64,000 bases of DNA from Bacteroidales bacterium. Lineage in GTDB: Bacteria > Bacteroidota > Bacteroidia > Bacteroidales > UBA3824. Position 1 is the stretch's first letter. Every line of letters begins with the position of its first letter. The notes below the pieces were generated by a model. The model worked only from the letters and a program-made list of their open reading frames with translations, was not told the DNA's origin and made no database searches. The stretch lies in assembly GCA_017417315.1 (NCBI GenBank), contig JAFPZK010000068.1, positions 5,104-69,103 on the forward strand, given 5' to 3'. Of this stretch, positions 15,620 through 33,791 are shown in pieces. The position numbers and the translations under genes are program-made.

Positions 15620-15686
15620 AAAGATAACGTGTTAAAAAATCCGTTTTTTTAACACGTTGTTTCTATTTATTGCCATAATCGAGGAA
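15602..15686. repeat. direct-repeat copy B (gene end + palindromic terminator 15626-15658 + 24-bp stub of a Fic 3' end)
   Basis: The minus strand of 15663-15686 reads FLDYGNK*, identical to the C-terminus of the Fic gene at 13266. The whole block matches 13162-13288. Confidence 0.7.
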
Positions 15687-15841: not shown

Positions 15842-16327
15842 TTAAAATTCCATTTTCACCTCAAATTTCGGAAGTTCGTCGCCACTGAAATAGTCCTCGA
15901 AGATTTGAAGATAACTTGCGCGGATGTCTTTGGCAAGATATTGCTCGTCAATGTTTTCCACTTTTGCGAGTAAAGTCTTGTCGGAAACGTGTGTCAAATG
16001 CTCGCGGATTACCTTGAAAAACTTTATCTCGCTGTATTGGATGATGTTGTCGGCACGAATAGTTTTTACAGCGACATCGGCGATTTTTATCTCCTCGTCT
16101 TCCGTCAATTCGGTATCTGCAAGTTCCGAAATGTACTGTTGGAGGAAACGTTTGCCCTTTTGATTGATTTCCTGAACAAGACGAGCAAACTCCGAATTGA
16201 TGTCTATTTCGCCAAAAAGATTGTCCTTAGCCATCTCTTTCAAGAGTTCGACTTCTTCGTCCGCGATGTCACCGTCGCACGACATACAAGCGAAGGCTGT
16301 TTTTAATAATAATTCGTTGATTTCCAT
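15842..16327 (-). CDS. TerB-like (tellurite-resistance TerB / DjlA N-domain-like) protein
   Basis: 161 aa, all-helical and acidic. The pattern AFACMSCDGDIADEEVELLKEMA ... IKIADVAVKTIRADNIIQYSEIKFF is typical of TerB repeats. Last gene of the Hsp70 operon. Confidence 0.65.
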   Translation of the reverse strand: MEINELLLKTAFACMSCDGDIADEEVELLKEMAKDNLFGEIDINSEFARLVQEINQKGKRFLQQYISELADTELTEDEEIKIADVAVKTIRADNIIQYSEIKFFKVIREHLTHVSDKTLLAKVENIDEQYLAKDIRASYLQIFEDYFSGDELPKFEVKMEF

Positions 16328-16340
16328 TGTATTAGTGTTT

Positions 16341-18629
16341 TTAATTGTTAATGCTATTTGTTAGTTTGTATTCTATAAATTCTCGTTCTGCAACCATATT
16401 GGGAACATTTTGAGAAAAAACAAAGCCAATCTTATTTAAAAGTTTTTCGCTTTGGATATTGCCTTTTTCAACAACTGCCGCCAATTCGTCGATGCCGAAT
16501 CTGAAAAACAACAAGTCGATGACTTTTGATAATGCAAAAGTCATAATGCCCTTATTTTCAAATGGTTCAAAGAGAAAGTATGAAATATCCCATTCGATGA
16601 AATTATGTTTCATCAGGTTTAATTTGGGCGTGTTTACCCAAATTGCACCTGCAAATTCGTTTTTGTAACGAATTGTGTATGCAAAACCTAACTTTTTATT
16701 CAAAATAAACGACTGCGATTTCAGGAGTTTCGCCCCTGATTCCACGCCTCCAAGATATTGTCGGATGCGTCCAACGCTGACATATTTATCGGCTTGCTCA
16801 ATGAAACTATCAGCCCAATCCGCGTTATCTTTTATTAGCAAAAGTTTATAATCTCCGCATAGAATGTCGCCAAGCGAAAAACTATCTGAGTTAGTTGAAT
16901 TGCTGTTTTCAACACCCATAAACTTGTCGCGGATTTCCTCGTGGCGTTTGATTTGCTCTACCGAAAGGCTTGGTTTGGTTTCAGAAATCGCTTCTTCCAA
17001 CAGAGCCATAGATATTTTGTCCATTCCACGACGGAAGGCAAGCCGCGCCGCCGTATCTATCACCAAACTAAGGTCGGCAGAAATATAATTTTCAGTTAGC
17101 CCTGCAAGTCGGTCGTAATCAATGCCAAAGTCGTATTTTCTTTTTGAAATACTGATTTTGAAAATTTCTTTGCGAGTTTCAAAATCGGGCTGCGGAATAT
17201 AATATTTCAATTCCAAACGTCCTGCCCTAAGAGCCGCTTCGTCGATGTCCATCGGTTTGTTGGTTGCGCCAATAACAAGTACGTTGTCTTTGCCGCAGTT
17301 GTTGAGTTGCATAAGAAACTCATTTACAGCCCCTGCCGTGGTTACGTTGTTGTGGTCGCTTCGGTCGCGGATTATGGAATCCACCTCGTCGAGAAACAAT
17401 ATCGTGGGGGCATTTTTGCGAGCCTCGTTGAAAATGTCGGCAATCTTGCCCTTGCCGCCGTCGATGTATGGCGACGCAACGTCAGACCCCTTTACATACT
17501 GATAGTTGAACCCTGTTTCCTCGGCAAATTTTTCTGCAAAAAACGTTTTGCCGCATCCGGGAGGCCCGTAAAAGAGCAATCCGTTGGGCAACGACAAACC
17601 TAACGATTTGGCTTGTTCGGGATTATTGAGCAACGATATAACATCCGATTGCAACTGTTCTTTCAATTCTTTCATGCCCGCCACGTCGGCAAATCCACCG
17701 CGTTTGCGTTTTGGACGTTCCTCTGTAACAGTCTCTTTTTTAACGTTTTGGGTAATTGGCGCAGATACGGCAATTTCGCCGTCTAAGGCTTTTATAAAAT
17801 CCTCTGCCGTTTGAAAACGGTCTGAAATTTCGTTGCTCAACGCTTTTGAAATGATGTTCAAAAGGTTTTCGTCCAGCTCGAATTTTTCTATGTCGGGATA
17901 TTTAAGCGTTTTTGACCTTGATGCAGATAATTTTTCGTCAATTTGGTCGCTATCCATTCCCGAAACGTCGAAAAACCACGGCAACGAGCCAAATAAAAGG
18001 TTGTAAATCAGCACTCCAACAGAATAAAGGTCTGACTGTATGCAACAAACACCGTTGAATCTTTCGGGAGCAAGATAAAAAGGGTTAACTTCCTTTAAAT
18101 CAGGCTTTGCAGGCTTTTGATTCAAGAATCTTGCGTTACCAAAGTCAATGAGTTTTAGTTTTTGTAAATCGCCCGAAAGGTTCAACAATATGTTTTGAAC
18201 CGTGATTTCATTATGGATTATCGGAATATTCAGATTATGAACGTATTGCAATGCCGAAAGTATTGCTTTTGCAATTTCTTTGGTTTCAAACACGCTTAAA
18301 TCGCCATCGCGCAAAATTCGTTTGTCTAATGTTTCGCTGCTTACAAATTCGGTTACAAAATATGCCAAATTTTGACCGCTTGAAATAATTTTGCCGTTGT
18401 TTTCAAATCTGCAAAGATTTCTGTGTTTCAGTTGTTTGGCAACTTCTATTTCGATAATGTTTCCGTTTTCGTCTATCTGATTTTTGTTGAGTTTTGAGTA
18501 GTAAATCAGTTTCAGAAACCGCAGTTTTCCCTCGCTATTCCGCACGCGGTATGTTTCCGCATAAGAGCCTTCCTTATGCGGAAATACCACCGTGTAAGAG
18601 TCGATATTTTGTCCTTTTTGAAAGAGCAT
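16341..18629 (-). CDS. triple fusion: Ser/Thr-kinase-like domain + classical AAA+ ATPase + GNAT acetyltransferase-like domain
   Basis: Kinase (aa ~1-290): LRFLKLI (beta3 Lys), catalytic loop IIHNEITVQNILL (HRD replaced by HNE), DFG (LIDFGNA) and APE (YLAPERF). AAA+ (aa ~320-565): GPPGCGKT, ILFLDEVDS, ALRAGRLE. C-terminus (aa ~600-762): GNAT-like NKGIMTFALSKVIDLLFFRFGIDELAAVVEKGNIQSEKLLNKIGF. Confidence 0.85.
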   Translation of the reverse strand: MLFQKGQNIDSYTVVFPHKEGSYAETYRVRNSEGKLRFLKLIYYSKLNKNQIDENGNIIEIEVAKQLKHRNLCRFENNGKIISSGQNLAYFVTEFVSSETLDKRILRDGDLSVFETKEIAKAILSALQYVHNLNIPIIHNEITVQNILLNLSGDLQKLKLIDFGNARFLNQKPAKPDLKEVNPFYLAPERFNGVCCIQSDLYSVGVLIYNLLFGSLPWFFDVSGMDSDQIDEKLSASRSKTLKYPDIEKFELDENLLNIISKALSNEISDRFQTAEDFIKALDGEIAVSAPITQNVKKETVTEERPKRKRGGFADVAGMKELKEQLQSDVISLLNNPEQAKSLGLSLPNGLLFYGPPGCGKTFFAEKFAEETGFNYQYVKGSDVASPYIDGGKGKIADIFNEARKNAPTILFLDEVDSIIRDRSDHNNVTTAGAVNEFLMQLNNCGKDNVLVIGATNKPMDIDEAALRAGRLELKYYIPQPDFETRKEIFKISISKRKYDFGIDYDRLAGLTENYISADLSLVIDTAARLAFRRGMDKISMALLEEAISETKPSLSVEQIKRHEEIRDKFMGVENSNSTNSDSFSLGDILCGDYKLLLIKDNADWADSFIEQADKYVSVGRIRQYLGGVESGAKLLKSQSFILNKKLGFAYTIRYKNEFAGAIWVNTPKLNLMKHNFIEWDISYFLFEPFENKGIMTFALSKVIDLLFFRFGIDELAAVVEKGNIQSEKLLNKIGFVFSQNVPNMVAEREFIEYKLTNSINN

Positions 18630-18652
18630 ATTGTTTTTAATTATACAATTTA

Positions 18653-21157
18653 TTACCTCAATAATCCTTGTGGCAATCCGCCTGCGTCAGGATTTGACAT
18701 TTGTTCGATAATTTGTCGCATTATAGGTTTAAGTTTCTCTACTGATGGGTTGGTTTCGGCAATTTCTGCTGCTTGATTAACGAGTTGGCGTGCACGGGTG
18801 CGGTTTTTCCAATCGATGGAATCGAAGTTGTTGTAGAAATGTTCTGTGAATGCCATCAAGTGGTGGATTTCGGTCAAATGGAAGAATAAACCTTTGATTT
18901 TCTTCAACAACTCCCGACCAAGTTCAATATCTTTTGAGCGAATTATTTTGTCAGTCTGTGTGCGGAGTGCGTTGACAGCCTGATGTGTCTTATCATCGCC
19001 GAGGTCTGAATCCGCTTTTTCAAGACGTTCAAACTCCTCACGAATTTCGTTTTCAAGACGTTCCCATTCTGTGCCGGCATCTTCGTCTTCTATCTTGCGG
19101 AGAACCTCTTTCAAGTGCTGCAAGACAGCCTTTTTCTCTTGTGAGTTTTTGTGGTCTTCTTTTACAGCGTCAAGTTCTCGTTGCAGTTTTGATGTATCAA
19201 TTGACGAATCAGACAAACGGTCGATGTCCCTTTGCGCTGTCTTTATCATCTTGGGAATTTGTTTTTCCGCCTCTACATTGCTCTGTTTCTTGCTTGTGTC
19301 AAGTTGCTTGGTTACTGTGAAATCTTCTGACGGAAAATAGATTTCCAATGTCATTTGCTCCGATGAATCCACTTTGATTGTTATATCTACGGGACTATTT
19401 TCGGGAATGAGAGATTCAATTTCGTCGCCGGTAACAATTACATCGGCAACATATTCGTATAAGTCGGCAGAACGTCCGCTTTCAGGTTCGTCTTCACACT
19501 GATAAACAGGCACTTTGAGAATGTCGCTTTCCATTCCCGGACGAAGTTGTTGCGTGGTTTTCAGTCCGTTGATTACACCCACTGCGGGAACAGGTTTGTT
19601 TTTCTCCAAACCTTTGGCTTCACGAAAAACCGCTTTTTGCTTGTTGTCGCTCCAAACTGCGATGCCGATGTTGTAGGGCAATGGTGCGGCACCAACTTTT
19701 GAGCCTTGAATGATTGTGATTTCGGACGGGAAACACGGAAGTTGGTCGCCTTTGGAGTTATAGACGTTGATTGTGAATGCGTTTGTCTTGCCTTCCAAAA
19801 GGTTGGCTTCTATTACGTTGCCCATCTCGTTGATTTCCGTTTTACCACTCGACCAAGCGTTGTCGCTGCGCACAAACTCCACCGTTACTTTCTCGGGACA
19901 AGTTGCGCCTGATGCTTTGCGGTCGAGTTTCACGCTTACCCATTCCGACTGCTCAACAGATGTAGATTCATAGCCAACTTCGAGTTTGATAGTGCCAACT
20001 TCAATGTCCTCTGCTTTTACGTCGTTGTCGAGGGTTGAGGCGTAGAGTGCCGCACCTGTGGCAACCGCCGTCATCGGGTCTATGCTTGTGTCAACGTTGG
20101 GCGTTACCTGCTCGCGCAACATTTGACGGATTAGCGGCGAATGTGTTGGACCTCCGACAAGAATCAATTTGTTCAAGTCGTTGCTTGTGAGGTTGTTTTT
20201 CTTCAAAAGGTCTTTGCAGATGTCAACCGCCTTTTGGAAAATCGGGCGCATTGCGTCGAAAACTTGGGCTTGCGTAACGCTGAGGTCAAGTTCGATTTCC
20301 TCGCCTTCGTCGTCTTCGCCAAGGTCGCCGAGGTTTGAGAGAATGTCCTCTTTGTCCTTGAACGACAGTTGGTTCTTGACATCTTCGGCGTATGTTTTCA
20401 TTGCATCGCGAAGAACTGCGCTTTTCTCCTTGTCGGACAGAATGTCGTCGATGGAATAGTTGTCTTTGAGATATGGAATGATGATTTTTTCAACTATTGC
20501 AGCATCAAGGTCTTTGCCACCGAGGTAGTTGTCGCCCGCAGTGTCAAATACCTGCATAATGCCGTCCTCAACCCTCAGCAATGCTGCATCAAACGTACCA
20601 CCGCCAAAGTCGAAAACCATCCAAATTCCGTTTTTCTGCTCACTTGTGAGTCCGTAAGCAAATGATGCTGCAATAGGCTCTTGCAGAAGTTCGCAACGGT
20701 CGAAACCTGCCATTTTTGCGGCTTCGATGGTTGCTGTTTTCTGATTGACAGTGAATTTTGCAGGCACAGTGATTACTACCGAACGGAACGTTTCGTCAGT
20801 AACAAACGATTTCAAAGTCTTCAATACTTCTGCTGAAAGTTCTTCCGAAGAGAAATCTTTGTTGATATTTGCGCAATGGTATTTTGTGTCAGTCGCCATT
20901 GTGCGTTTGAACTCGATGTAGGTGTTGGAATCTTCTTTTTTCCAACTTTTTGTTGCACGACGTTTGTCGGATTTCATTGTGTTGTATGCTCCATCGCCAA
21001 CTTTTATGCTGCCTTTTTTGTTAATAGAAACACAAGAAGGCAGAGTGTCTTTTAGGGTATCGGATTTGATAACAACCGGTTCACCCTTTTCCATTCGGCA
21101 AATAGACGAGTTGGTTGTGCCAAGGTCGATGCCGTAGTCTATTTTGATTCTTGCCAT
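18653..21157 (-). CDS. atypical long Hsp70-family ATPase
   Basis: 834 aa with IDLGTTNSSI, VFDFGGGTFDAALL and ILVGGPTHSPLIRQML. An SBD-beta-like segment starts near APLPYNIGIAVW, preceded by a ~115-aa extra segment. The C-terminus is a long helical tail. Confidence 0.9.
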   Translation of the reverse strand: MARIKIDYGIDLGTTNSSICRMEKGEPVVIKSDTLKDTLPSCVSINKKGSIKVGDGAYNTMKSDKRRATKSWKKEDSNTYIEFKRTMATDTKYHCANINKDFSSEELSAEVLKTLKSFVTDETFRSVVITVPAKFTVNQKTATIEAAKMAGFDRCELLQEPIAASFAYGLTSEQKNGIWMVFDFGGGTFDAALLRVEDGIMQVFDTAGDNYLGGKDLDAAIVEKIIIPYLKDNYSIDDILSDKEKSAVLRDAMKTYAEDVKNQLSFKDKEDILSNLGDLGEDDEGEEIELDLSVTQAQVFDAMRPIFQKAVDICKDLLKKNNLTSNDLNKLILVGGPTHSPLIRQMLREQVTPNVDTSIDPMTAVATGAALYASTLDNDVKAEDIEVGTIKLEVGYESTSVEQSEWVSVKLDRKASGATCPEKVTVEFVRSDNAWSSGKTEINEMGNVIEANLLEGKTNAFTINVYNSKGDQLPCFPSEITIIQGSKVGAAPLPYNIGIAVWSDNKQKAVFREAKGLEKNKPVPAVGVINGLKTTQQLRPGMESDILKVPVYQCEDEPESGRSADLYEYVADVIVTGDEIESLIPENSPVDITIKVDSSEQMTLEIYFPSEDFTVTKQLDTSKKQSNVEAEKQIPKMIKTAQRDIDRLSDSSIDTSKLQRELDAVKEDHKNSQEKKAVLQHLKEVLRKIEDEDAGTEWERLENEIREEFERLEKADSDLGDDKTHQAVNALRTQTDKIIRSKDIELGRELLKKIKGLFFHLTEIHHLMAFTEHFYNNFDSIDWKNRTRARQLVNQAAEIAETNPSVEKLKPIMRQIIEQMSNPDAGGLPQGLLR

Positions 21158-21168
21158 ATATAATAGGT

Positions 21169-22086
21169 TTAAATGTTTTGACTTACTGTAATTTGTGCTG
21201 ATTGAATCATTTTGCCGTTATAATTAATCTGCGGCTTTGTGATTCCTGTTATCTTTTGTTCACCGTCGGCGAGTGATTCGTCCGAAACGAAGTTCGCAGT
21301 TACTTTCATTCCCTCGTTGTATGGCTTATTCAGCATATCCACAATTTCGTATCCATTTGCCATAAAATTGGCTCTGATGCGCTCAACGGCTTTTGAGAGT
21401 TGTTTATAACCCTTTACCGACGAATCCATTTTTGAAAGGTTGGTTTCGATGCGGATGATTTCGTCAGCAACTTTCAATGCCAGCGAATGGTCGGGTTCGC
21501 TTGATTTGCTTTCGGTAACAATTGGTTGGCTTGTCATCTGTTTTTCAAGCAATTCGATTAATTTATTGTCGAGTTTTACCGATTCTTCCTGCATTGATTT
21601 CTGGACGTTTTCGAGGCTCTTTTGAGCCGATTTGATTTTGTCGATGTCAGAATCTTTGCTGCCAATTTTGTTTTTCAGAACCAAATAGACAACCACGAGA
21701 AGTATCACCGCCACAATGATGCCGATGATGGCAATTAGTTTGTTGGCGGAGATTGATTGGTTCAACGACTCTGCCGTTTGGCTGATTTTGGAATCTGTTT
21801 CACCAATTTTTGTTGTGATGGTGGATTCCAAAGCCGATGATTTCTCATTGAGAGAAGTTTCCAATTCGGTAGCCTTTATGCCCAACTGCTGCTCCAACGC
21901 TTCAATTTTTGCGTTTTGGATAGCGATAGTCTGGTTCTGCTGATTTTGGATTTTCTGCAAATCGTTTACACGGTTGCTTAAATTCGCAAAGTCTGTTTCG
22001 AGATTCTTTATTCTTATAGAATCCGATGTCTGTGCCGAAACCGAAAGCGACAGACAAGCGAGAATGATTAGTAGAATGTTTTTCAT
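21169..22086 (-). CDS. membrane-spanning GrpE-like protein (putative nucleotide-exchange factor)
   Basis: Signal peptide MKNILLIILACLSLSVSAQ, a ~100-aa Q/N/E-rich coiled coil, and TM helix LIAIIGIIVAVILLVVVYLVL. The C-terminal NGYEIVDMLNKPYNEGMKVTANFVSDESLADGEQKITGITKPQINYNGKMIQSAQITV aligns by eye with the E. coli GrpE beta-domain ([51 protein letters not shown]). Confidence 0.55.
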   Translation of the reverse strand: MKNILLIILACLSLSVSAQTSDSIRIKNLETDFANLSNRVNDLQKIQNQQNQTIAIQNAKIEALEQQLGIKATELETSLNEKSSALESTITTKIGETDSKISQTAESLNQSISANKLIAIIGIIVAVILLVVVYLVLKNKIGSKDSDIDKIKSAQKSLENVQKSMQEESVKLDNKLIELLEKQMTSQPIVTESKSSEPDHSLALKVADEIIRIETNLSKMDSSVKGYKQLSKAVERIRANFMANGYEIVDMLNKPYNEGMKVTANFVSDESLADGEQKITGITKPQINYNGKMIQSAQITVSQNI

Positions 22087-22089
22087 ATT

Positions 22090-23874
22090 TTATGAGTTCA
22101 TTTTTTTTATTATCCAATTGATGATGTGCATAGAGATATAGTTCAAAGGAAATAACCACATACCGATACCACCAACCAAAAATATACTTCCCTCTTTATT
22201 TGCCACCGAAATTATTGCCCATATAATTTCCACAATAATTATAGCCGCAACATAATGATCTTCTTCATCATAAGAACGTGAAGATGAACTGCTTGAAGAA
22301 GACGAACTACCTGAATAATAGTTGCTTGATGATGAGTAACTACTACTCAAACTGCTTGTTGCCGTTGACGGTTTCGGTGTAGAAACCGCTGCCGCTGTTC
22401 TAATTCTCGGTATTGTTGTTGTTCTTGTAGAAGAAGAAGTTGTTGATGTTGTAGTACGAGTTATCGGCTTGTACGTGGAAATATTCAAATCCTCACACAT
22501 TGATTTCAAGGCACTTCTATTCTCATTATAATGCGATTTGAAATCAGATTCAATATCATAATCGTCCATAGATAATGTGACATTCCACGCCGCACGCAAT
22601 GTAGTTTTGAGTTTTTCAACAATACGATTGCGGTCGTAAGAACTGAAACATGACTCTATTTCATCGTGTGCATTTTCTTGTGCCTCGTTGACGTCGCCCA
22701 CAACCATTCGCATTGCAACCGACACCACAATTGTGGACAGTTTAAGATAGTGGTCGTTGGTGCTGCCAAGTTTTGTTTTGATTGCCTGAATGTGAGGTTT
22801 GCAATTATTAAGTAGCGAATCTGCGGTTGAAATTGACGGCGATTTTTTGATAATCTTCTCAATTTCTGCCATTACTGCTTTATGTTCTTTGCGCACTTCT
22901 TTCGGTGGTAATTCAGCAATAATCTTTTCCAAGACTTTGAGAGTGTCCTTGCACCTGTCTTTCGCCATTTCACCCATAACGATTTTCGATGCTTCCTTTT
23001 GCAATGTCATCGCATTCTCCGCTGCAACATCGTGGTCGGAATTGTTATAGTAGTTTATTGCGCATTGAAGAATCTGCAAGCCAAGTTTGTCGGCGACGGA
23101 TTCAAGTTGCATATCGCCCGACGGGAGTAATTTTTTGAGTTCGGCAAAATCTTTTTTTGTTGAATTTTGCAATTTAATTCCTGCGCTGAGATTTGCGTTT
23201 GCATCGTCGCTATCCACATCTTTCGCCACTTTTATCGCCGCATTGATTCTGTCAATCAACGGTTTTACAGTCTTGCTACCAAGATAATCTTTCCAATCGT
23301 CCGAGAAAACAATGTCGTAAATTCTTTTCGGCTCGTATTCGGCGCATAGTGTGTCAATAAACGAATGAATCAAATCGTCTTTGTCCAAATTGAGAGTGCC
23401 GGTTGTGTCGGCAGCTTTCAAGAAATCGTCGCTGAATTGGTCGTACAAATCCTCAGCTGTATTGACGGCCTGGTCGAAATTGTTCGTGATGAAATTGGTA
23501 ACAACCTTGTTTTGGAGCGATGAAACACAGTTTTTCTTGTCCCATATCTCAATGGCTTGTTGCCAATTACCGGCATAGAGATGGTTGAAAGCGACATCGT
23601 CGAGCGGTGTCATCTTCAAAAACCAAAACTGAGCGTACTTCAATTGCTCTTTTGCGATTGTCAGATGTGCGGTTGCCTGACTAAATGTATCTACCGTCCT
23701 ATTGACGTGCGGCATAAGAGCCTTCAAGTCCAACGGATATTCTACCGCCCTGCCCACTTTCAAAAAGGCGTTTGCCTTGCCTTGGTTGGCGACAATCTCC
23801 TTTTTTGACGAGTTTGCAAAAACGCCGAGAATCCTGAACGGGTTGTCTAAAACTATTTTCGGGATACTGTTCAT
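22090..23874 (-). CDS. J-domain-like protein lacking HPD, with Ser/Thr-rich linker and C-terminal TM hairpin
   Basis: The N-terminus NPFRILGVFANSSKKEIVANQGKANAFLKVG resembles J-domain helices I/II (YEILGV..A...EIKKAYRKLA), but no HPD follows. A ~400-aa helical region follows, then a low-complexity S/T stretch (aa ~472-540) and two hydrophobic helices at the C-terminus. Confidence 0.5.
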   Translation of the reverse strand: MNSIPKIVLDNPFRILGVFANSSKKEIVANQGKANAFLKVGRAVEYPLDLKALMPHVNRTVDTFSQATAHLTIAKEQLKYAQFWFLKMTPLDDVAFNHLYAGNWQQAIEIWDKKNCVSSLQNKVVTNFITNNFDQAVNTAEDLYDQFSDDFLKAADTTGTLNLDKDDLIHSFIDTLCAEYEPKRIYDIVFSDDWKDYLGSKTVKPLIDRINAAIKVAKDVDSDDANANLSAGIKLQNSTKKDFAELKKLLPSGDMQLESVADKLGLQILQCAINYYNNSDHDVAAENAMTLQKEASKIVMGEMAKDRCKDTLKVLEKIIAELPPKEVRKEHKAVMAEIEKIIKKSPSISTADSLLNNCKPHIQAIKTKLGSTNDHYLKLSTIVVSVAMRMVVGDVNEAQENAHDEIESCFSSYDRNRIVEKLKTTLRAAWNVTLSMDDYDIESDFKSHYNENRSALKSMCEDLNISTYKPITRTTTSTTSSSTRTTTIPRIRTAAAVSTPKPSTATSSLSSSYSSSSNYYSGSSSSSSSSSSRSYDEEDHYVAAIIIVEIIWAIISVANKEGSIFLVGGIGMWLFPLNYISMHIINWIIKKMNS

Positions 23875-24134
23875 TGCTTTTGTACTTTTCCTCTTAGTGT
23901 CATAACCTCAAAAAGGTTACACACTTTTACCAAAAAAATTTTGTGTAAAGGTAGTTCGCGTAAATATTTTATACAAAAAATTGCGTATCAAGTTTTTACA
24001 CAAAATGTATCAAAATTTCTGACAAAACGTATAACAATTTTGGACACTATTATCATTTATTATCAAACTCTGTCCAAATCCCGAAACAGAAAAGTTAATT
24101 ATATTTTACTTTTTAGCTATACAAAATAAAAAAC

Positions 24135-24417
24135 GTGGGATTGTACTGTTCACTCGTCCCACTCTCAGAGGCCTTGGCCTGCCCATCCCGTCAGAACGAG
24201 CAACACCGAAGCCCACGCAATACGTATATACAACAAACCCTTCTCAGAGTTTGAGATAATACATAACCCGCAGGCATTACCGTGTTGCTTTGTTATTTGA
24301 CGGGATTGAAACGGCCAAGTTTCTGAGAGTCAAAATGACAAAGCGTAAAGTAACGCCTCTTAATTTGTACAAATCGCTGCCACCCTTCCGCCCGTGTGGG
24401 CTTCGGAAGCAACACGG
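24135..24417 (+). other. candidate structured RNA, or MITE-like / invertible inverted-repeat element
   Basis: A rod of three stacked helices is present: 24161-24179/24313-24330, 24185-24193/24298-24306 and 24195-24206/24282-24294. This gives about 38 bp including 3 G-T pairs that only work on the + strand. In addition, 24206-24218 is complementary to 24394-24406, and 24280-24290 is complementary to 24407-24417. Confidence 0.35.
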
Positions 24418-24486
24418 CAAATATAATAAAGATTTCTTAACGATAAACACTGAAAGCAAAAAAAATTTTTCTTCATCCTCATAAAT

Positions 24487-24630
24487 AAAGTTTCCAATAT
24501 TGTTTTTTTTACAAAAATAAAGTTTCCAATATTGTTTTTGCCATAAAAATAAAGTTTCAAATATTGTTTTTTAGTAAAAAAAAAAGTTTCTAATATTGAA
24601 AAAAACAATAAAAAAAAGTTTGGAATATTG
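24487..24630 (+). repeat. five direct repeats AAAGTTTCCAATATTG (core palindrome CAATATTG) at exactly 32-bp spacing
   Basis: Copies start at 24487, 24519, 24551, 24583 and 24615, with A/T-rich spacers. The array ends 11 bp before the -7 box of the 24674 gene. Confidence 0.85.
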
Positions 24631-24673: not shown

Positions 24674-25882
24674 ATGGAAAACGCAACAATAGAAACCTTG
24701 TACGAAATATCAGAGAGACTTGTAAAGGCGACGAAGACCGACTTTATAAGATATTTGTACAACGAAATAAACTGGAACAACAATCTCATCGGCATCAAAG
24801 GTGCGAGAGGCGTAGGAAAAACGACGCTGATGTTGCAATACATCAAGCAAAACTTCAAAAACGACCTCTCGAAGGCTCTCTATGTGTCGCTCGACAACCT
24901 TTGGTTTGCCAATCATACTTTGTCGCAAGTGGTTGATTATCACTACAAAAACGGCGGCACTCACATTTTTATTGACGAAATACACAAGTACCCCAATTGG
25001 CAGACGCTCCTGAAAAACATCGTGGACGAATACCCCGGATTCAACGTCGTTTATACAGGCTCGTCGATGTTGAAGATAGACTACCACAAGGGCGACTTGT
25101 CGAGAAGGCAGATTGTCTATACGCTCAAAGGTCTGTCGTTCAGGGAGTTCCTTGAATACGAAACGCAACAGAAATTCCCCGCGCTGACCCTTGAACAACT
25201 GTTGCAGACACATTCGGAGGTGGCGTTGCAACTGACTGAAAAACTGAAAATTCTGCCGCTTTTCGACAAATACCTGAAATGCGGGTATTATCCGTTTTAC
25301 AAAAAAGACACGGCGGGATTCGGTATGAGGTTGCAAGGCACAATCCTGAGCATTCTCAACGAGGATATGCCATACGTGGAGGACATCAGTCAGGCGACCA
25401 AAATGAAAATTATGAGGATGCTGATGATTATCGCCGAAAACGTGCCGCAGACGCCCAAAATGTCGGACCTCTACGCCGCACTCGAAACAAGCAGGGAACA
25501 GGGGCTCAAAATGTTGTCGCTTTTGGAAAGTGCCGACCTGCTGACCACGTTGTCGGCTGTCACCAAAAACTTCAAGTATATGTCGAAGCCCGACAAGATT
25601 TACCTCAACAACCCCAACTTGATGTACGCGCTCACGCCAAACGCCAACAGGGGCACGCTGCGTGAGACGTTTTTCCTCAACCAAATGTCTTACGTCGGCG
25701 AGGTCAACTATCCCAAGCAAGGCGACTTCCTCGTCAATCAAAAGTACCTCTTTGAGGTGGGCGGCCACAAGAAGACTTTCGACCAAATCAAGGACATACC
25801 CGAAAGTTTCCTCGCCGTCGATGACATCGAGACGGGAAGACGGAATCGGATACCGCTGTATATGTTTGGGATGATGTATTGA
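24674..25882 (+). CDS. ATPase of the AAA_14 + DUF4143 type
   Basis: 402 aa with P-loop GIKGARGVGKTT and Walker B IFIDEIH. The C-terminal half is of the DUF4143 kind, common in Bacteroidales. Confidence 0.8.
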   Translation: MENATIETLYEISERLVKATKTDFIRYLYNEINWNNNLIGIKGARGVGKTTLMLQYIKQNFKNDLSKALYVSLDNLWFANHTLSQVVDYHYKNGGTHIFIDEIHKYPNWQTLLKNIVDEYPGFNVVYTGSSMLKIDYHKGDLSRRQIVYTLKGLSFREFLEYETQQKFPALTLEQLLQTHSEVALQLTEKLKILPLFDKYLKCGYYPFYKKDTAGFGMRLQGTILSILNEDMPYVEDISQATKMKIMRMLMIIAENVPQTPKMSDLYAALETSREQGLKMLSLLESADLLTTLSAVTKNFKYMSKPDKIYLNNPNLMYALTPNANRGTLRETFFLNQMSYVGEVNYPKQGDFLVNQKYLFEVGGHKKTFDQIKDIPESFLAVDDIETGRRNRIPLYMFGMMY

Positions 25883-25979
25883 GAAGCATACGAAGTCGGA
25901 GAGATTAATCACTCCGACTTCCTTTCTTTATGGTGCAAACATTTTCAATCAAAAGATTATATTTTTCAGGAATTTTTTT

Positions 25980-25987
25980 TACCTTTG
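25980..25987 (+). promoter_or_regulatory. -7 box TAccTTTG
   Basis: Lies 27 nt upstream of ATG 26014. Confidence 0.4.
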
Positions 25988-26013
25988 CCATCACAACAAA
26001 AAATTCACCCGCT

Positions 26014-27627
26014 ATGGAAACTCGCAGATACCCTGTTGACAAACAGACTTTTAGGAAAATAATAGAAGGCAACTTCGTCTATGTCGATAAGACAGACTTG
26101 GTCTATAAAATGACCCACGACTACGACTATGTATTCCTGTCAAGGCCTCGGCGTTTTGGCAAGTCGTTGCTGTGCAGCACGTTGAAGGAGTATTTCGACG
26201 GCAACAAAGATTTGTTCAAGGGGCTAAAAATTGATGCGTTGGAGAATGAATGGGTGAAGTATCCCGTGATTCATCTTGATTTCAGTTCGTGCAAAACCAC
26301 CGACTTGAAAGCCATAAAATTGTACCTTTCAAAAATGTTGGCTGACTACGAACATAAATATTCCCTGATTTCTGACAAGGAATACGAACAAGAACGAAAG
26401 GGCGCAAAAGAGACGGCAGATATTTCAAATGTCCGCTTGGGCAATATCGTTGAGGCGGCGTTCCAACAGACAGGACAGGAAGTGGTAGTCATTATCGACG
26501 AATATGACGCGATGATGCTCAACGCGATACACGACGACAATTTGCAAAACAAAATTCGCGAGCAACAGAACAACTTCTTTTCACCATTAAAAAAACTTGG
26601 CAGTTTTATCCGTTTTGTATTCATCACAGGCATCACAAAGTTTTCGCAGATGTCGATATTCTCGACGTTGAACAACTTGCAGGACATTTCATTGATGCCT
26701 GAATTTGAAACTATTTGCGGCATTTCGCACGACGAATTGTTGACTGTATTAAAGCCTGACATTCAGAACTTTGCCGACAAAAACGGTTATACATTTGAAC
26801 AGACTGTTGAGTATTTGAAGTTTAAATACGACGGCTACAATTTTTCGCCCGAAATGCGCAGTGTCTTCAATCCTTTTTCTGTAATCAAAGCAATGAACGA
26901 CAAGCAATTGAACGACTATTGGTTTAATTCGGGTACGCCGTCGTCATTGCTGAAACTTATCAGCAAGTTCAATATCCAAATGGAGGATTTTGAAGGCGTG
27001 GAATGTAGTTCGTCGCGTTTCAACCAACCTGTGGAAAAAGTCACCGACCTTGTGCCGTTTTTGTTTCAGGCGGGCTATTTGACAATAAAGGATTACAGGG
27101 CAGTAAATTACGGCATAGTCCCAACTTATATTTATACTTTGGGTTATCCTAACGACGAGGTGAGGGCGGCGTTGGCGGATTCGTTGTTCAAAAGTTTTTA
27201 CAAGGTGAACGACACTATGCCCCTGCGCAACGCCTATTTGGATTTTTATGTCAACGACGACATCGACAAGTTCATCAAGGCTTTGCAAAAGTTTTTCCGC
27301 AGGTTCCCGTTTTCGCTCAACAATATGAACGAAAAACATTATCATTCAATTCTTTATACTGTTCTGACCTCGTTCAGCGCGGACATTTCAGCCAATCAGG
27401 AGACTGCCCTCGGCAAGTCGGATTTGATTCTAAGGATGCCCAAGACGATTTACGTAATCGAACTCAAATACGACCGCAGCACTGATTCCGCCATTGACCA
27501 AATCGACGACCGCGACTATGTGTCCGCCGTTCTCGACACCAACAAGCGCATCATAAAACTCGTCATCAAATTCTCGTCAAAAGACAGGAATATCGAGAGT
27601 TACGAGGCGGTGGAAGAAAAGATATAA
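26014..27627 (+). CDS. AAA-ATPase_like (PF09820-type) + PD-(D/E)XK (PDDEXK_9-type) protein
   Basis: Carries FRKIIEGNFVYVDKTDLVYKM...FLSRPRRFGKSLL and a C-terminal GKSDLILR...VIELKYD nuclease-like motif. ATG 26014 (METRRYPV) is preferred over the longer track ORF. Confidence 0.8.
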   Translation: METRRYPVDKQTFRKIIEGNFVYVDKTDLVYKMTHDYDYVFLSRPRRFGKSLLCSTLKEYFDGNKDLFKGLKIDALENEWVKYPVIHLDFSSCKTTDLKAIKLYLSKMLADYEHKYSLISDKEYEQERKGAKETADISNVRLGNIVEAAFQQTGQEVVVIIDEYDAMMLNAIHDDNLQNKIREQQNNFFSPLKKLGSFIRFVFITGITKFSQMSIFSTLNNLQDISLMPEFETICGISHDELLTVLKPDIQNFADKNGYTFEQTVEYLKFKYDGYNFSPEMRSVFNPFSVIKAMNDKQLNDYWFNSGTPSSLLKLISKFNIQMEDFEGVECSSSRFNQPVEKVTDLVPFLFQAGYLTIKDYRAVNYGIVPTYIYTLGYPNDEVRAALADSLFKSFYKVNDTMPLRNAYLDFYVNDDIDKFIKALQKFFRRFPFSLNNMNEKHYHSILYTVLTSFSADISANQETALGKSDLILRMPKTIYVIELKYDRSTDSAIDQIDDRDYVSAVLDTNKRIIKLVIKFSSKDRNIESYEAVEEKI

Positions 27628-27654
27628 TATTTTCCAAAGACCTAAAAAAGCCTT

Positions 27655-27700
27655 ATTTTCAGCGGAAACTTTAAAAAATAATCGAATTTCCGCTGAAAAT
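27655..27700 (+). terminator. hairpin (14-bp stem attttcagcggaaa/tttccgctgaaaat, 18-nt loop), possible terminator
   Basis: Perfect inverted repeat 28 nt after the stop at 27627. The T-run is weak. Confidence 0.4.
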
Positions 27701-27714
27701 AGCGATATTTTTAT

Positions 27715-27722
27715 TATATTTG
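27715..27722 (+). promoter_or_regulatory. -7 box TAtaTTTG
   Basis: Lies 26 nt upstream of ATG 27748. Confidence 0.4.
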
Positions 27723-27747
27723 CAGCGGAAATCAACAAAATGTAATT

Positions 27748-29172: not shown

Positions 29173-29184
29173 ATAACTTGGATA

Positions 29185-29289
29185 TTCGCCGTCCTCGACA
29201 CCAATAAGCACATCGTAAAACTCGCCATCAAATTCTCGTCAAAGGACAGAAACATCGAGAGTTACGAGGTGGTGGAGGAGAAGTTGTAA
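29185..29289 (+). pseudogene. 3'-terminal stub of a second PF09820/PDDEXK_9-type gene
   Basis: Reads FAVLDTNKHIVKLAIKFSSKDRNIESYEVVEEKL*, versus SAVLDTNKRIIKLVIKFSSKDRNIESYEAVEEKI* at 27526-27627. Identity is about 87% over 102 nt by hand count. Confidence 0.75.
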
Positions 29290-29303
29290 TTACTAAATTT
29301 CTA

Positions 29304-29353
29304 CAAAGTTTCGGGCTAAATCGTGTTTTTAGCCCGAAACTTTGCATTTTTTT
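29304..29353 (+). terminator. rho-independent terminator
   Basis: Stem caaagtttcgggctaaa / ttagcccgaaactttg followed by cattttttt. The same stem sequence recurs at 15697-15760. Confidence 0.65.
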
Positions 29354-29425
29354 GGAATGATTATGTCGATTACGTTTTCGGGAAAGGTAATGATAATTGT
29401 TTAATCGACAACAATTGCAAATCAA

Positions 29426-30448: not shown

Positions 30449-30517
30449 AATGTTTTAATATTTTATTTCGCATAATGTCTATGCTTCTTTTTATTATGCC
30501 TCTACCCGCATATTTAT

Positions 30518-32086: not shown

Positions 32087-32303
32087 AATAGATTTTTAAG
32101 CCACATTTCAAATGCAAAGTTAAAAATCTTTTTTACAAAAGATAGATTTTTTCCCGAAAAATATTTTACCTCTGCCCTCGGGCAAAAAACACCGTTTAAA
32201 ACTGCGGTAAGTGGCAAAAAATGTCGTTCGCCGCAAAATAAAAGGGGTAATTTGAATCGCATAATTATCCAACTTTAAAGTATTGATTTTCGCAAAATAT
32301 TTC

Positions 32304-32311
32304 TATATTTG
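32304..32311 (+). promoter_or_regulatory. -7 box TAtaTTTG
   Basis: Lies 23 nt upstream of ATG 32334. Confidence 0.4.
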
Positions 32312-33779: not shown

Positions 33780-33791
33780 TTTTTTCTTGCT

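What the first reader, a model, noticed from the sequence alone, without database searches (positions are those of the whole stretch)
15842..23874. Five-gene operon for a membrane-tethered, non-canonical Hsp70 machine coupled to a kinase-AAA+-GNAT protein and TerB
All five genes are on the minus strand, with gaps of only 3, 11, 23 and 13 bp. In order, they encode:
- a J-like protein without HPD, carrying an S/T-rich linker and a C-terminal TM hairpin;
- a GrpE-like protein with a signal peptide, a long coiled coil and one TM helix;
- an 834-aa Hsp70;
- a 762-aa kinase-like/AAA+/GNAT fusion;
- a TerB-like protein.
TerB plus J is the domain pair fused in E. coli DjlA. The locus therefore reads like a disassembled, expanded DjlA-Hsp70 circuit in which both co-chaperones are membrane-anchored and an enzymatic triple fusion is attached. 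It sits in a mosaic island next to Fic, R-M and ATPase-nuclease genes, so a conflict/defence or envelope-stress sensing role is plausible. I do not recognise this composition as any characterised system.
Basis: partly seen in the sequence, partly recalled or inferred. Interest (0 to 1): 0.9.

Follow-up and report, generated by a model that had tools for sequence, protein, structure and literature searches.

The report
Membrane-anchored accessory Hsp70 chaperone cassette
A mobile gene cassette, widespread in gut, rumen and marine Bacteroidota, encodes a second, non-housekeeping Hsp70 with its own membrane-anchored exchange factor and adaptor, usually with an AAA+ unfoldase and a TerB protein; I found no description of it, and its role (probably stress handling or phage defence at the membrane) is untested.

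Summary
The five minus-strand genes and their 3/11/23/13-bp gaps are real. Hsp70 (intact ATPase motifs, far below the DnaK equivalog cut-off), kinase-like/AAA+/GNAT and TerB-like are supported. The 305-aa protein is GrpE-like by predicted structure only: the top 12 PDB matches are all GrpE. The J-like call is unproven: no HPD in any relative, almost no Pfam DnaJ hits, weak profile-profile signal. Its main body is a TPR-like helical solenoid.

In 42 related loci, adaptor, GrpE-like and Hsp70 co-occur in 23/23 assessable cases and all five genes in 17/23. GNAT occurs only in this clade. The kinase loop is HNE, not HRD, and degenerate in some relatives. Both putative co-chaperones are membrane-anchored across the family, and variable membrane-protein genes are often inserted.

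The cassette crosses phyla, sits beside BREX on a Haliscomenobacter plasmid, matches no PADLOC system, and I found no paper describing it.

Best reading: a membrane-tethered Hsp70 and Cdc48-like AAA+ remodelling machine with TerB, probably for membrane-level conflict or stress. The function is inferred.

Separately, the operon is preceded by a roughly 300-nt covarying structured RNA leader, absent from Rfam, that also precedes many unrelated Bacteroidales operons.

The parts
22090..23874 (-). 594-aa membrane-anchored adaptor. It has an N-terminal J-like motif module (about residues 1-85, NPFRILGV..., no HPD, invariant D49). It then has an all-helical TPR-like solenoid (about 90-465), an S/T-rich linker (about 470-535) and a C-terminal hydrophobic anchor (540-558 and following).
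   Evidence: ORF. AlphaFold2 model: pLDDT 91.8, all helices. Foldseek finds only weak TPR-like matches. J-domain tests are weak. TM segments. The family has 1,935 representatives at 50% identity. It is the fastest-diverging subunit, and 2-4 tandem paralogues occur in some loci.
21169..22086 (-). 305-aa GrpE-like putative nucleotide-exchange factor. It has a signal-peptide-like N-terminus, an extracytoplasmic coiled coil (about 20-115), a TM helix (118-136), a long cytoplasmic helix and a C-terminal two-helix + beta domain (about 200-305).
   Evidence: ORF. AlphaFold2 model. The top 12 Foldseek PDB hits are GrpE/GrpEL1 (E 3.8e-5 to 2.3e-2), and the next hit has E 0.5. There is no sequence-level GrpE hit. 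The TM helix is conserved, and short 171-aa forms keep the TM plus the GrpE-like part.
18653..21157 (-). 834-aa non-housekeeping Hsp70. It has an NBD (9-387) with intact ATPase motifs, an inserted beta-rich segment of about 110 aa (about 390-505), a divergent SBD-beta-like region (about 505-600) and a long helical C-terminal region.
   Evidence: Pfam HSP70 6e-69, covering the NBD only. DnaK, HscA and other equivalog scores are far below their cut-offs. The family profile matches DnaK NBD at 1.6e-68 and gives a second weak match of positions 519-731 to DnaK 386-583 (i-E 0.037). Invariant motifs GIDLGTTNS, K84-R85, E160 and DFGGGTFD are seen.
16341..18629 (-). 762-aa fusion. It has a protein-kinase-like domain (20-274, catalytic loop HNE instead of HRD, DFG present). 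It then has a classical AAA+ ATPase with lid (about 310-565, Cdc48/p97 D2-like) and a RimJ-like GNAT (about 640-740).
   Evidence: Pfam hits. PADLOC similarity to mad6/PD-T4-6 kinases and IetA ATPase. Motif alignment. Closest PDB match is Cdc48/p97/VAT at 2e-82. The GNAT is closest to 1nsl/3igr RimJ. The GNAT is present only in the window and L001.
15842..16327 (-). 161-aa TerB-like protein with the duplicated (A/C)DG-x5-E motif (D18 G19 E25 / D93 E100 invariant).
   Evidence: Alignment A3. Pfam TerB is hit by 19/21 members, best E 7e-6. The top PDB profile hits are the TerB-fold entries 2h5n, 2ou3 and 2jxu (weak). Orthologues are named TerB by NCBI and JGI. The window protein alone does not reach Pfam TerB.
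15626..15658 (-). Terminator-like 14-pair hairpin downstream of the last gene. It is the probable 3' end of the transcription unit.
   Evidence: It is the only minus-strand terminator-like site between 15300 and 24200.
24113..24411 (-). Conserved structured RNA leader of about 300 nt. It forms a rod-like fold with an alternative 3' terminator-like hairpin and a U-run. It lies upstream of the first gene on the operon strand.
   Evidence: Fold z-score is -7.66 on the minus strand and -4.81 on the plus strand. It is conserved upstream of the J-like gene in 9 further cassette loci. Covariation is strong. It is not in Rfam 15. It is not specific to this cassette.
24418..24425 (-). TATATTTG, a match to the Bacteroidetes -7 promoter motif TAnnTTTG, just upstream of the leader.
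   Evidence: Read from the sequence. The same motif sits at the equivalent position upstream of the leader in other loci. The motif identity rests on my own knowledge of Bacteroides promoters.

Best explanation
This is an accessory, horizontally mobile Hsp70 system that works at the inner face of the cytoplasmic membrane.

What is shown:
- The Hsp70 paralogue keeps all ATPase residues.
- It is always encoded with a membrane-anchored protein whose cytoplasmic C-terminal part is predicted to have the GrpE fold.
- It is always encoded with a membrane-anchored, fast-evolving TPR-like protein.
- In most loci there are also a Cdc48-like AAA+ ATPase carrying an atypical kinase-like N-domain and a TerB protein.

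Inferred mechanism:
1. The 594-aa adaptor binds a client near the membrane through its helical solenoid. It docks on the Hsp70 through its N-terminal J-like module. The invariant Asp49 in an F/Y-P-x-D loop may stand in for HPD.
2. The Hsp70 clamps the client after ATP hydrolysis.
3. The membrane-spanning GrpE-like dimer resets the Hsp70 by ADP release. Its extracytoplasmic coiled coil may couple the cycle to the state of the envelope.
4. The client is passed to the AAA+ hexamer, which unfolds or extracts it, as DnaK passes clients to ClpB. The kinase-like domain acts as the substrate/adaptor or regulatory N-domain. In this clade a RimJ-like GNAT adds an acetylation step.
5. TerB acts as an amphitropic membrane or metal sensor that gates or localises the AAA+ part.

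Most likely biological role: surveillance or repair at the membrane during conflict (phage, colicin-like or other envelope attack), rather than general proteostasis.

My confidence differs by level. About 0.75 that the five proteins form one membrane-tethered Hsp70/NEF/AAA+ functional unit. About 0.4 that its role is defence or conflict.
For: Gene order and tight spacing. Synteny across 42 loci.

Spread: the cassette occurs in several Bacteroidota classes and on contigs binned to Psychrobacter, Flexilinea and Lachnospiraceae. It also occurs on plasmid pHALHY02.

Components:
- Hsp70 NBD with intact motifs, not DnaK.
- GrpE fold.
- Membrane anchors conserved.
- AAA+ motifs invariant and Cdc48-like.
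- TerB.

Conflict-type signals:
- The adaptor diverges fastest. For example in L031 it is 24% identical, against 48% for the Hsp70.
- The adaptor is tandemly duplicated 2-4 times in some loci.
- Its family has 1,935 clusters at 50% identity.
- Variable inserted genes between Hsp70 and kinase are nearly all membrane proteins.
- A clade-specific GNAT is added.
- Neighbours include BREX brxL/pglZ and an McrBC-like gene on pHALHY02. Other loci carry GmrSD x3, DUF1848 x3, integrases x3, PDC-S02, HEC-06, SspE and RT.
- The window island has Fic, nucleases, DUF1848 and a NotI-like endonuclease.
- The kinase resembles defence kinases mad6/PD-T4-6 and the AAA resembles IetA.
- TerB proteins are parts of the defence systems Shango, Bunzi and Dionysus, where they are proposed to act in membrane surveillance (10.1101/2025.09.30.679545).
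Against: - The J-domain relationship is not established. There is no HPD anywhere. Pfam DnaJ was not among the 25 most-hit families for 74 diverse members (at most one member). hhalign probability is 7% with the diverse alignment. The way the Hsp70 ATPase is triggered is therefore unknown.
- GrpE likeness rests on one predicted model. pLDDT is 72-81 in that domain and TM-scores are only 0.21-0.45. There is no sequence-level support.
- The SBD match is weak.
- No protein of the core hits any PADLOC model, and nothing was found in phage genomes.
- The subclade L008-L013 has only adaptor(s)+GrpE-like+Hsp70 and sits next to housekeeping genes (AIR synthase-like, release factor). This fits a proteostasis role as well.
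- Defence neighbours are present in a minority of the 33 loci examined.
- The kinase lacks the HRD Arg and Asp in this protein, and in several relatives also DFG.
- No experiment of any kind bears on function.
Confidence: 0.5

Rival explanations
1. The cassette is a specialised proteostasis or biogenesis system, not a defence system. A membrane-tethered Hsp70 ratchet helps insert, extract, translocate or quality-control particular membrane or secreted proteins. This would resemble the mitochondrial PAM motor or Sec63/BiP. The AAA+ protein would act as the extraction motor.
For: Both co-chaperone-like proteins are membrane-anchored. The inserted variable genes are membrane proteins or lipoproteins that could be clients. 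The three-gene subclade lies among housekeeping genes. The AAA+ is Cdc48-like. There is no PADLOC match. The cassette shares its promoter-leader with operons for surface LRR proteins, lipoproteins and glycosyltransferases.
Against: Distribution is patchy and crosses phyla, and the cassette is carried on a plasmid. The adaptor diversifies fast and has tandem paralogues. Defence and mobile neighbours occur in several loci. TerB and defence-type kinase/AAA similarities exist. No secretion or insertion machinery is encoded in the cassette.
Confidence: 0.3
2. The cassette is a signalling device of the DjlA-DnaK type. The membrane-anchored co-chaperones and TerB would sense envelope state. The Hsp70 would then switch a regulator on or off, with the kinase-like domain as the output.
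For: TerB-DnaJ is the DjlA architecture. The GrpE-like protein has an extracytoplasmic coiled coil that could sense the envelope. A kinase-like domain is present.
Against: The kinase catalytic loop is non-canonical and is lost in several relatives, while the AAA+ motifs are invariant. No transcription factor or response regulator is conserved in the cassette. A J domain is not demonstrated. TerB is missing in 8 of 27 assessable loci.
Confidence: 0.1
3. The five genes are merely neighbours in a mosaic island and do not work together.
For: The region is a mosaic of accessory genes. GNAT and TerB are not universal.
Against: The same order and tight spacing recur in 42 loci down to about 40% Hsp70 identity and across phyla. 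The core three genes are present in 23/23 loci and all five in 17/23. There is no internal terminator-like site.
Confidence: 0.03

Closest known systems
DnaK-DnaJ-GrpE chaperone triad with the ClpB AAA+ disaggregase
   Same: An Hsp70 with an intact ATPase site, a GrpE-fold partner and an adaptor encoded together, plus an AAA+ unfoldase that could receive clients.
   Different: - The Hsp70 is far below the DnaK/HscA equivalog cut-offs. It has an insert of about 110 aa after the NBD and a long C-terminal helical region.
- The exchange factor and the adaptor are membrane-anchored.
- The adaptor has no HPD and no demonstrable J domain.
- The AAA+ is a single classical Cdc48-like domain with a kinase-like N-domain, not ClpB.
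Mitochondrial presequence translocase motor (mtHsp70 with membrane-bound Pam18/Pam16 and the GrpE homologue Mge1); own knowledge
   Same: An Hsp70 is held at a membrane by membrane-bound J and J-like (HPD-less) partners and reset by a GrpE-type factor. This is the nearest analogue for how a membrane-tethered Hsp70 ratchet works.
   Different: No translocase channel gene is in the cassette. Here the GrpE-like protein itself spans the membrane. There is no homology beyond the Hsp70 and GrpE folds. The system is bacterial and mobile, with AAA+ and TerB partners.
E. coli DjlA (TM + TerB-like + J domain) acting with DnaK
   Same: It combines a membrane anchor, a TerB domain and an Hsp70 co-chaperone function. 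TerB-DnaJ is the DjlA architecture.
   Different: Here TerB is a separate soluble 161-aa protein encoded after the AAA+ gene. The putative J-like protein lacks HPD. A dedicated Hsp70 and GrpE-like protein are encoded. The similarity is by analogy only.
E. coli HscC with the membrane-anchored J proteins DjlB/DjlC (HPE variants)
   Same: A specialised third Hsp70 works with its own C-terminally membrane-anchored co-chaperones that carry a variant of the HPD motif (PMC13580251; PMC10410713).
   Different: HscC is short (own knowledge: about 556 aa) and has no dedicated GrpE, AAA+ or TerB partner. DjlB/C are recognisable J domains, while the 594-aa protein is not. Relatedness to HscC was not tested.
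TerB-containing anti-phage systems (Shango SngA, Bunzi BnzA, Dionysus DinB)
   Same: A small TerB protein is encoded with ATPases and/or membrane proteins in mobile defence contexts. TerB is proposed to watch the membrane.
   Different: None of these contains an Hsp70, a GrpE-like protein or a kinase-AAA protein. The window's TerB-like protein hits no PADLOC model.
Defence kinases and ATPases: MADS mad6, PD-T4-6, IetA of IetAS
   Same: The kinase-like domain hits mad6 (9e-37) and PD-T4-6 models. The AAA+ domain hits IetA (2e-30).
   Different: The similarity is at domain level only. The partner genes of those systems are absent. The scores are far below the NCBIfam equivalog cut-offs (MAD6 107 vs 460; IteA 93 vs 510).

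Membership tests
Hsp70 family | Actin-like nucleotide-binding domain with the catalytic residues | tested here: met
   Pfam HSP70 6e-69 over residues 9-387. GIDLGTTNS, K84-R85, E160 and DFGGGTFD are invariant in 24 relatives.
Hsp70 family | Substrate-binding beta-sandwich and helical lid after the NBD | tested here: inconclusive
   The family profile gives only a weak second match (positions 519-731 to DnaK 386-583, i-E 0.037). No structure was predicted for this protein.
Housekeeping DnaK (TIGR02350 equivalog) | Score above the curated equivalog cut-off | tested here: not met
   250 bits against a cut-off of 822. HscA scores 230 against 708.
GrpE nucleotide-exchange factors | Long helix, two-helix bundle contribution and C-terminal beta domain (GrpE fold) | tested here: met
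   The AlphaFold2 model has helices 145-185, 201-219 and 227-243 followed by six strands. The Foldseek top 12 PDB hits are all GrpE/GrpEL1, with E 3.8e-5 to 2.3e-2 and probability 0.94-1.0. This is a prediction, not a solved structure.
GrpE nucleotide-exchange factors | Sequence signature (Pfam GrpE or profile match to solved GrpE) | tested here: not met
   There is no GrpE hit in Pfam or NCBIfam. The family profile against PDB finds only coiled-coil proteins.
GrpE nucleotide-exchange factors | Acceleration of nucleotide exchange on the partner Hsp70 | not testable with these tools
   This needs biochemistry.
J-domain proteins | HPD tripeptide between helices II and III | tested here: not met
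   HPD is absent in the window protein, in 24 locus relatives and in 146 representatives at 50% identity. An invariant Asp in an F/Y-P-x-D loop occupies the aligned place.
J-domain proteins | Recognisable J-domain sequence or fold | tested here: inconclusive
   Pfam DnaJ is hit by 3/25 members (best E 0.012), and DnaJ was not among the 25 most-hit families for 74 others (at most one member). In the profile search against PDB the top two hits are J domains, but at E about 0.2 and over helices I-II only. hhalign gives 55% (P 1e-4) with 25 sequences and 7% (P 0.005) with 74. Controls give P 0.35 and 0.65. The model shows a compatible helix order with a 21-residue loop. The N-domain could not be searched on its own by fold.
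TerB domain (PF05099) | Pfam TerB match and the duplicated acidic metal-binding-type motif | tested here: met
   The window protein alone gives no hit. 19/21 orthologues hit TerB, best E 7e-6. D18 G19 E25 / D93 E100 are invariant. Orthologues are named TerB by NCBI and JGI.
Eukaryote-like Ser/Thr protein kinases | Catalytic HRD aspartate, DFG and VAIK lysine | tested here: not met
   Pfam Pkinase 9e-32. The catalytic loop is H-N-E here. At the Asp position the relatives have E, D, G, A, S or N. DFG is present here but lost in at least 6 relatives. The lysine is kept. Activity is uncertain.
Classical AAA+ ATPases (Cdc48/FtsH/PAN clade) | Walker A, Walker B, sensor 1, arginine fingers and lid | tested here: met
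   Pfam AAA 9.5e-34 and AAA_lid_3. GPPGCGKT, DE, ATN and LRxGR are conserved in 28 relatives. The best PDB matches are Cdc48/p97 D2 at 2e-82.
GNAT acetyltransferases | Pfam Acetyltransf_3 / RimJ-like core | tested here: met
   Acetyltransf_3 7.6e-11 over residues 644-737. The nearest PDB entries are 1nsl and RimJ 3igr. It is present only in the window and L001 clade.
Any catalogued anti-phage system (PADLOC-DB v2) | Matches of the component proteins to one system's models | tested here: not met
   Only domain-level hits of the kinase and AAA parts were found. There was nothing for the adaptor or TerB-like proteins, and only marginal coiled-coil-type hits for the GrpE-like protein and the Hsp70 (DruC E 6e-4). 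DefenseFinder was not available.
DjlA | One polypeptide with N-terminal TM, TerB-like domain and C-terminal HPD J domain | tested here: not met
   The domains lie on separate proteins, there is no HPD, and the TM is at the C-terminus of the adaptor.

The most novel reading that the evidence does not exclude
The cassette is a new class of bacterial immune or stress system in which a dedicated Hsp70 cycle is the sensor and motor. Fast-evolving, membrane-anchored TPR adaptors would capture invader or damaged proteins at the membrane. A trans-membrane GrpE-like factor would tie the cycle to envelope state. A Cdc48-like AAA+ with TerB would execute unfolding or extraction or trigger an effector (GNAT here, assorted membrane proteins elsewhere). 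Expression would come from a shared, previously uncatalogued terminator/antiterminator RNA leader that controls many accessory operons in Bacteroidales.
Probability: 0.3. Interest if true: 0.85.

Novelty: new variant of a known kind. Interest (0 to 1): 0.7.

Why it matters
Hsp70 paralogues of unknown role are common in bacteria, and a 2026 review treats them as an open question (PMC13580251).

This cassette gives a concrete, testable case. It has a dedicated Hsp70 with its own exchange factor. Both accessory proteins are tethered to the membrane. It is coupled to a Cdc48-like unfoldase and to TerB, a domain that keeps turning up in phage defence without a known mechanism.

It is abundant in human-gut Bacteroidales. 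The Parabacteroides/Bacteroides orthologue clusters were seen on up to 1,000 contigs, which is the counting limit.

If it is a defence or envelope-repair system, it would link chaperone cycles to bacterial immunity. It would also give a bacterial counterpart to membrane-tethered Hsp70 motors of organelles.

The RNA leader found on the way may be a general control element of accessory operons in a major gut phylum.

Tried and rejected
- Single-sequence Pfam, NCBIfam and PADLOC scans gave nothing for the three accessory proteins. Single-sequence PDB searches gave nothing for the TerB-like and J-like proteins.
- The whole-model Foldseek search of the 594-aa protein was swamped by TPR-like repeats. 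It could not test the 85-residue N-domain.
- The profile of the GrpE-like family against PDB sequences returned only coiled-coil proteins.
- A larger, more diverse alignment weakened the J-domain signal rather than strengthening it.
- I first called the kinase a pseudokinase. I softened this because 20 of 28 relatives keep D or E at the catalytic position together with DFG.
- I first took the upstream RNA to be part of the cassette. A metagenome scan showed that only 6 of 109 copies precede this cassette. It is therefore a shared leader.
- Retron, integron attC, inverton and MITE readings of the RNA were considered and set aside. No RT or integrase is linked to it. There are essentially single copies per contig. 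The promoter lies outside the inverted arms. The distance to the next ORF is constant at about 45-90 nt. Pairing is strand-specific through G-U pairs.
- Nine literature searches found no description of the cassette. I could not retrieve the 2012 Ter-systems paper.

Full report
OBSERVATION. The ORF list shows five minus-strand ORFs at exactly the stated coordinates: 594, 305, 834, 762 and 161 aa. They are separated by 3, 11, 23 and 13 bp. A consensus scan finds no minus-strand terminator-like site inside the block. It finds one 14-pair hairpin at 15658-15626, about 185 bp after the last stop codon.

WHAT EACH PROTEIN IS: HSP70. Pfam matches only the nucleotide-binding domain (residues 9-387, 6e-69). 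NCBIfam scores for DnaK (250 vs 822) and HscA (230 vs 708) are far below the curated cut-offs. It is therefore not the housekeeping dnaK. In an alignment of 24 relatives the ATPase motifs are invariant. The family profile matches solved DnaK NBDs at 1.6e-68. It gives a second, weak match of positions 519-731 to DnaK 386-583, which is the substrate-binding domain and lid (i-E 0.037). This leaves an extra segment of about 110 residues after the NBD and a long helical tail.

WHAT EACH PROTEIN IS: 762-AA FUSION. Pkinase (9e-32), AAA (9.5e-34) with lid, and Acetyltransf_3 (7.6e-11) are all present.
- The AAA+ part is closest to Cdc48/p97/VAT D2 (2e-82). Its Walker A/B, sensor and arginine residues are conserved in 28 relatives.
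- The kinase catalytic loop is H-N-E instead of H-R-D. Relatives have E, D, G, A, S or N at the Asp position, and at least six have also lost DFG.
- The GNAT, nearest to RimJ, occurs only in the window and its 93%-identical relative L001. All other relatives stop at about residue 590.

WHAT EACH PROTEIN IS: 161-AA PROTEIN. It has no significant hit on its own. However, 19 of 21 orthologues hit Pfam TerB (best E 7e-6). The duplicated D-G-x5-E / D-x6-E motif is invariant. The top three profile hits in PDB are TerB-fold proteins. NCBI and JGI name orthologues TerB. The TerB call is supported.

WHAT EACH PROTEIN IS: 305-AA PROTEIN. There is no sequence-level hit to GrpE. An AlphaFold2 model built on 56 relatives has mean pLDDT 79, and 72-81 in the C-terminal domain. 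It shows one very long helix, two shorter helices and a six-stranded beta domain. In Foldseek against PDB the first 12 hits are all GrpE or GrpEL1, several in complex with their Hsp70. Their E-values run from 3.8e-5 to 2.3e-2, and the next hit has E 0.5. TM-scores are low (0.21-0.45) because of the long helices.

Before that part lie a signal-peptide-like N-terminus, a coiled coil and a strong TM helix (118-136). The coiled coil should therefore be outside the membrane and the GrpE-like part inside. In relatives the TM helix is kept. A short 171-aa form has only about 17 residues before the TM helix.

WHAT EACH PROTEIN IS: 594-AA PROTEIN. The model is confident (pLDDT 91.8) and all-helical. 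The whole-model search finds only weak TPR-like matches.

The N-terminal motif NP(Y/F)R(I/L)LGV...KE(I/V) resembles J-domain helices I-II. The helix order in the model (H24-39, 21-residue loop, H61-72, H74-81) is compatible with a J domain. The tests, however, are weak:
- Profile against PDB: the top two hits are J domains, at E about 0.2.
- Pfam DnaJ is hit by 3 of 25 members, but DnaJ was not among the 25 most-hit families for 74 more diverse members, so at most one of them hit it.
Controls give P 0.35 and 0.65.
- No HPD occurs in any of 25 + 146 relatives. An invariant Asp in an F/Y-P-x-D loop aligns with it.

I treat the J-like call as plausible but unproven. The S/T-rich linker is evident in the sequence. 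A C-terminal hydrophobic anchor is found here and in most relatives.

SYNTENY AND SPREAD. A genome scan with the Hsp70 returned 44 loci, of which 42 belong to the family.
- The GrpE-like gene is adjacent in 37/37 loci with enough sequence.
- The adaptor is adjacent in 32/32.
- The kinase-AAA gene is adjacent in 24/28.
- The TerB-like gene is adjacent in 19/27.
- All five are present in 17/23 loci, and the first three in 23/23.

Hosts are Prevotella and other Bacteroidales, Parabacteroides, Muribaculum, Flavobacteriales, Saprospirales and Cytophagales. Some contigs are binned to Psychrobacter, Flexilinea, Lachnospiraceae and Clostridia. The Parabacteroides/Bacteroides orthologue clusters were seen on up to 1,000 contigs, the counting limit.

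The same five genes sit on plasmid pHALHY02 of Haliscomenobacter hydrossis. There they are annotated as CFI-box-CTERM protein, septum formation initiator, Hsp70 family protein, AAA family ATPase and TerB family protein. They lie directly beside BREX brxL and pglZ and an McrBC-like gene. No phage record carries the Hsp70 C-terminal half.

FEATURES THAT BEAR ON FUNCTION.
- The adaptor diverges fastest (24-50% identity where the Hsp70 is 47-80%). It is present in 2-4 tandem copies in several loci. Its family has 1,935 clusters at 50% identity, with lengths from 278 to 1012 aa among the 150 listed.
- Between the Hsp70 and kinase genes, many loci carry one or two extra genes from at least six unrelated families. 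Nearly all have TM segments, a tail anchor or a lipoprotein signal.
- One locus (L036) has three extra membrane proteins with recognisable but HPD-less DnaJ domains after the TerB gene.
- A subclade (L008-L013) has only adaptors, a short GrpE-like protein and the Hsp70, next to AIR-synthase-like and release-factor genes.
- Flanking genes in 33 loci include DUF1848 x3, GmrSD x3, integrases x3, PDC-S02, HEC-06, SspE and a reverse transcriptase. Many ordinary genes are also present.
- In the window the neighbours are Fic, AAA_14, AAA-ATPase_like+PDDEXK_9, YhcG nuclease, DUF1848, an RlaP-like nucleotidyltransferase and a NotI-like endonuclease. Glycoside hydrolases and dxr lie to the left.
- The five loci without TerB despite having the kinase-AAA gene (L005, L014, L015, L016, L038) all have a degenerate kinase loop.

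MECHANISM. What is shown: co-inheritance of an ATPase-competent Hsp70 paralogue with a membrane-spanning protein of predicted GrpE fold and a membrane-anchored helical-repeat protein. In most cases a Cdc48-like AAA+ and TerB are added.

What I infer: the adaptor brings clients at the membrane to the Hsp70. The GrpE-like protein resets it, possibly under control of its outer coiled coil. The AAA+ hexamer then unfolds or extracts the client, as ClpB does downstream of DnaK. TerB, known as an amphitropic stress and defence domain, gates or localises this step. The GNAT of this clade and the variable membrane proteins of others look like exchangeable effectors or clients.

The pattern includes mobility, diversifying adaptors, exchangeable parts and some defence neighbours. 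This makes a conflict or membrane-surveillance role the most likely one (about 0.4). Specialised membrane proteostasis is the main rival (about 0.3).

COMPARISON WITH KNOWN SYSTEMS. The cassette works like a DnaK/J/GrpE+ClpB set. By its tethering it also works like the mitochondrial PAM motor (own knowledge).

It is not a member of the DnaK, HscA or DjlA families by the tests above. It matches no PADLOC system. Shango, Bunzi and Dionysus share only the TerB component. CoCoNuT-associated and EACC1-fused Hsp70s are different proteins in different contexts.

Nine literature searches found no description of this cassette. No paper in the library holds both 'TerB domain' and 'Hsp70'. A 2026 review states that bacterial DnaK-derived paralogues are largely uncharacterised.

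I rate it a new variant of a known kind of machine, with unknown biology.

SIDE FINDING: AN UNCATALOGUED RNA LEADER. Upstream of the first gene, on the operon strand, lies a Bacteroidetes -7 promoter motif (TATATTTG, 24425-24418). It is followed by a structured segment of about 300 nt (24411-24113) that ends in a U-run.
- It folds far better than shuffles on the minus strand (z -7.66, against -4.81 on the plus strand).
- It is conserved in the same place in nine other cassette loci.
- It has no Rfam 15 match here or in eight other loci.
109 of these contain the whole element, but only six precede this cassette.
- In the rest an ORF starts about 45-90 nt after the element. Its product falls into 55 blastp clusters among 85.
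- The downstream genes include BspA-type LRR proteins, radical-SAM enzymes, NusG-like proteins, a GmrSD-like gene and a kinase. Most have no Pfam hit.

On 79 sequences a rod-like fold of 66 pairs is 87% paired, against 33-46% when slid. It has 605 double-change cells against 93-170, and 0 of 500 shuffles reach it. An alternative 3' hairpin (GUGGGA/UCCCAC + U-run) shares bases with the rod and also covaries: 90% paired against 32-70% when slid, and 45 double-change cells against 1-5.

Two exclusive, covarying folds suggest a terminator/antiterminator switch that controls many accessory operons. Because the leader is shared with many unrelated operons, it says little about what the cassette does.

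LIMITS. No structure was predicted for the Hsp70 or for the J-like N-domain alone. TM calls come from a simple hydropathy window. Taxonomic labels of metagenome bins may be wrong. Neighbour analysis covered 33 loci without a background control.

Noticed in passing
window 24113-24425 (minus strand); also L003, L004, L007, L014, L019, L020, L022, L033, L041 just upstream of the first cassette gene; 109 metagenome loci among L045-L164: A promoter motif plus a structured RNA leader of about 300 nt, absent from Rfam 15. It has strong covariation for a rod-like fold and for a mutually exclusive terminator-like 3' hairpin. It precedes very diverse accessory operons in Bacteroidales-type contigs (55 first-gene clusters among 85). 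Only 6 of 109 metagenome copies precede the Hsp70 cassette.
   Followed up: yes
window 24464-24623: Four to five tandem copies of a 32-bp A/T-rich unit (AAAGTTTCCAATATTGTTTTT...). They lie between the leader's promoter and the divergent AAA_14 gene and may be binding sites for a regulator.
   Followed up: no
L036 8540-12949: Three tandem genes right after the TerB gene encode membrane proteins with recognisable but HPD-less DnaJ domains (ELDP/ELNP in place of YHPD). The C-terminal domain of one resembles, by eye, the roughly 220-aa lipoprotein family inserted between Hsp70 and kinase in other loci; no alignment was run.
   Followed up: partly
L008-L013: A subclade of the cassette has 2-4 tandem adaptor paralogues (about 373 aa), a short 171-aa GrpE-like protein and the Hsp70. 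It has no kinase-AAA or TerB gene. Downstream are AIR-synthase-like and peptide-release-factor genes.
   Followed up: partly
L001, L002, L019, L021, L022, L027-L030, L034, L037, L039, L040 (between the Hsp70 and kinase genes): Variable inserted genes from several unrelated families. They include a DUF3137-like protein with a TM hairpin, tail-anchored 180-206-aa proteins (one with CpXC zinc ribbons), lipoproteins of about 220 aa and a KilA-N protein. L001, 93% identical to the window, has a 311-aa insert that the window lacks.
   Followed up: partly
L005, L014, L015, L016, L038 versus the other loci: Loci whose kinase-like domain has lost both the catalytic acidic residue and DFG tend to lack the TerB gene (5 of 8). 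Loci with HN(D/E)+DFG and enough downstream sequence all have it.
   Followed up: partly
L165 (NC_015512.1, Haliscomenobacter hydrossis plasmid pHALHY02) 5193-19323: The five-gene cassette lies back to back with BREX genes brxL and pglZ and a 5-methylcytosine restriction component. The adaptor is annotated there as a CFI-box-CTERM domain protein.
   Followed up: partly
window 24674-40856: A run of accessory genes to the right of the cassette. It includes AAA_14, AAA-ATPase_like+PDDEXK_9, ATPase_2, YhcG/DUF1016 nuclease, a BspA-type LRR protein, a double zinc-ribbon protein, a DUF1848 fragment, an RlaP-like nucleotidyltransferase and a NotI-like endonuclease.
   Followed up: no
L014 8533-9975; L025 12776-15280; L028 3141-5183: Some loci carry a second Hsp70-like gene inside the cassette (480, 834 and 680 aa).
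   Followed up: no
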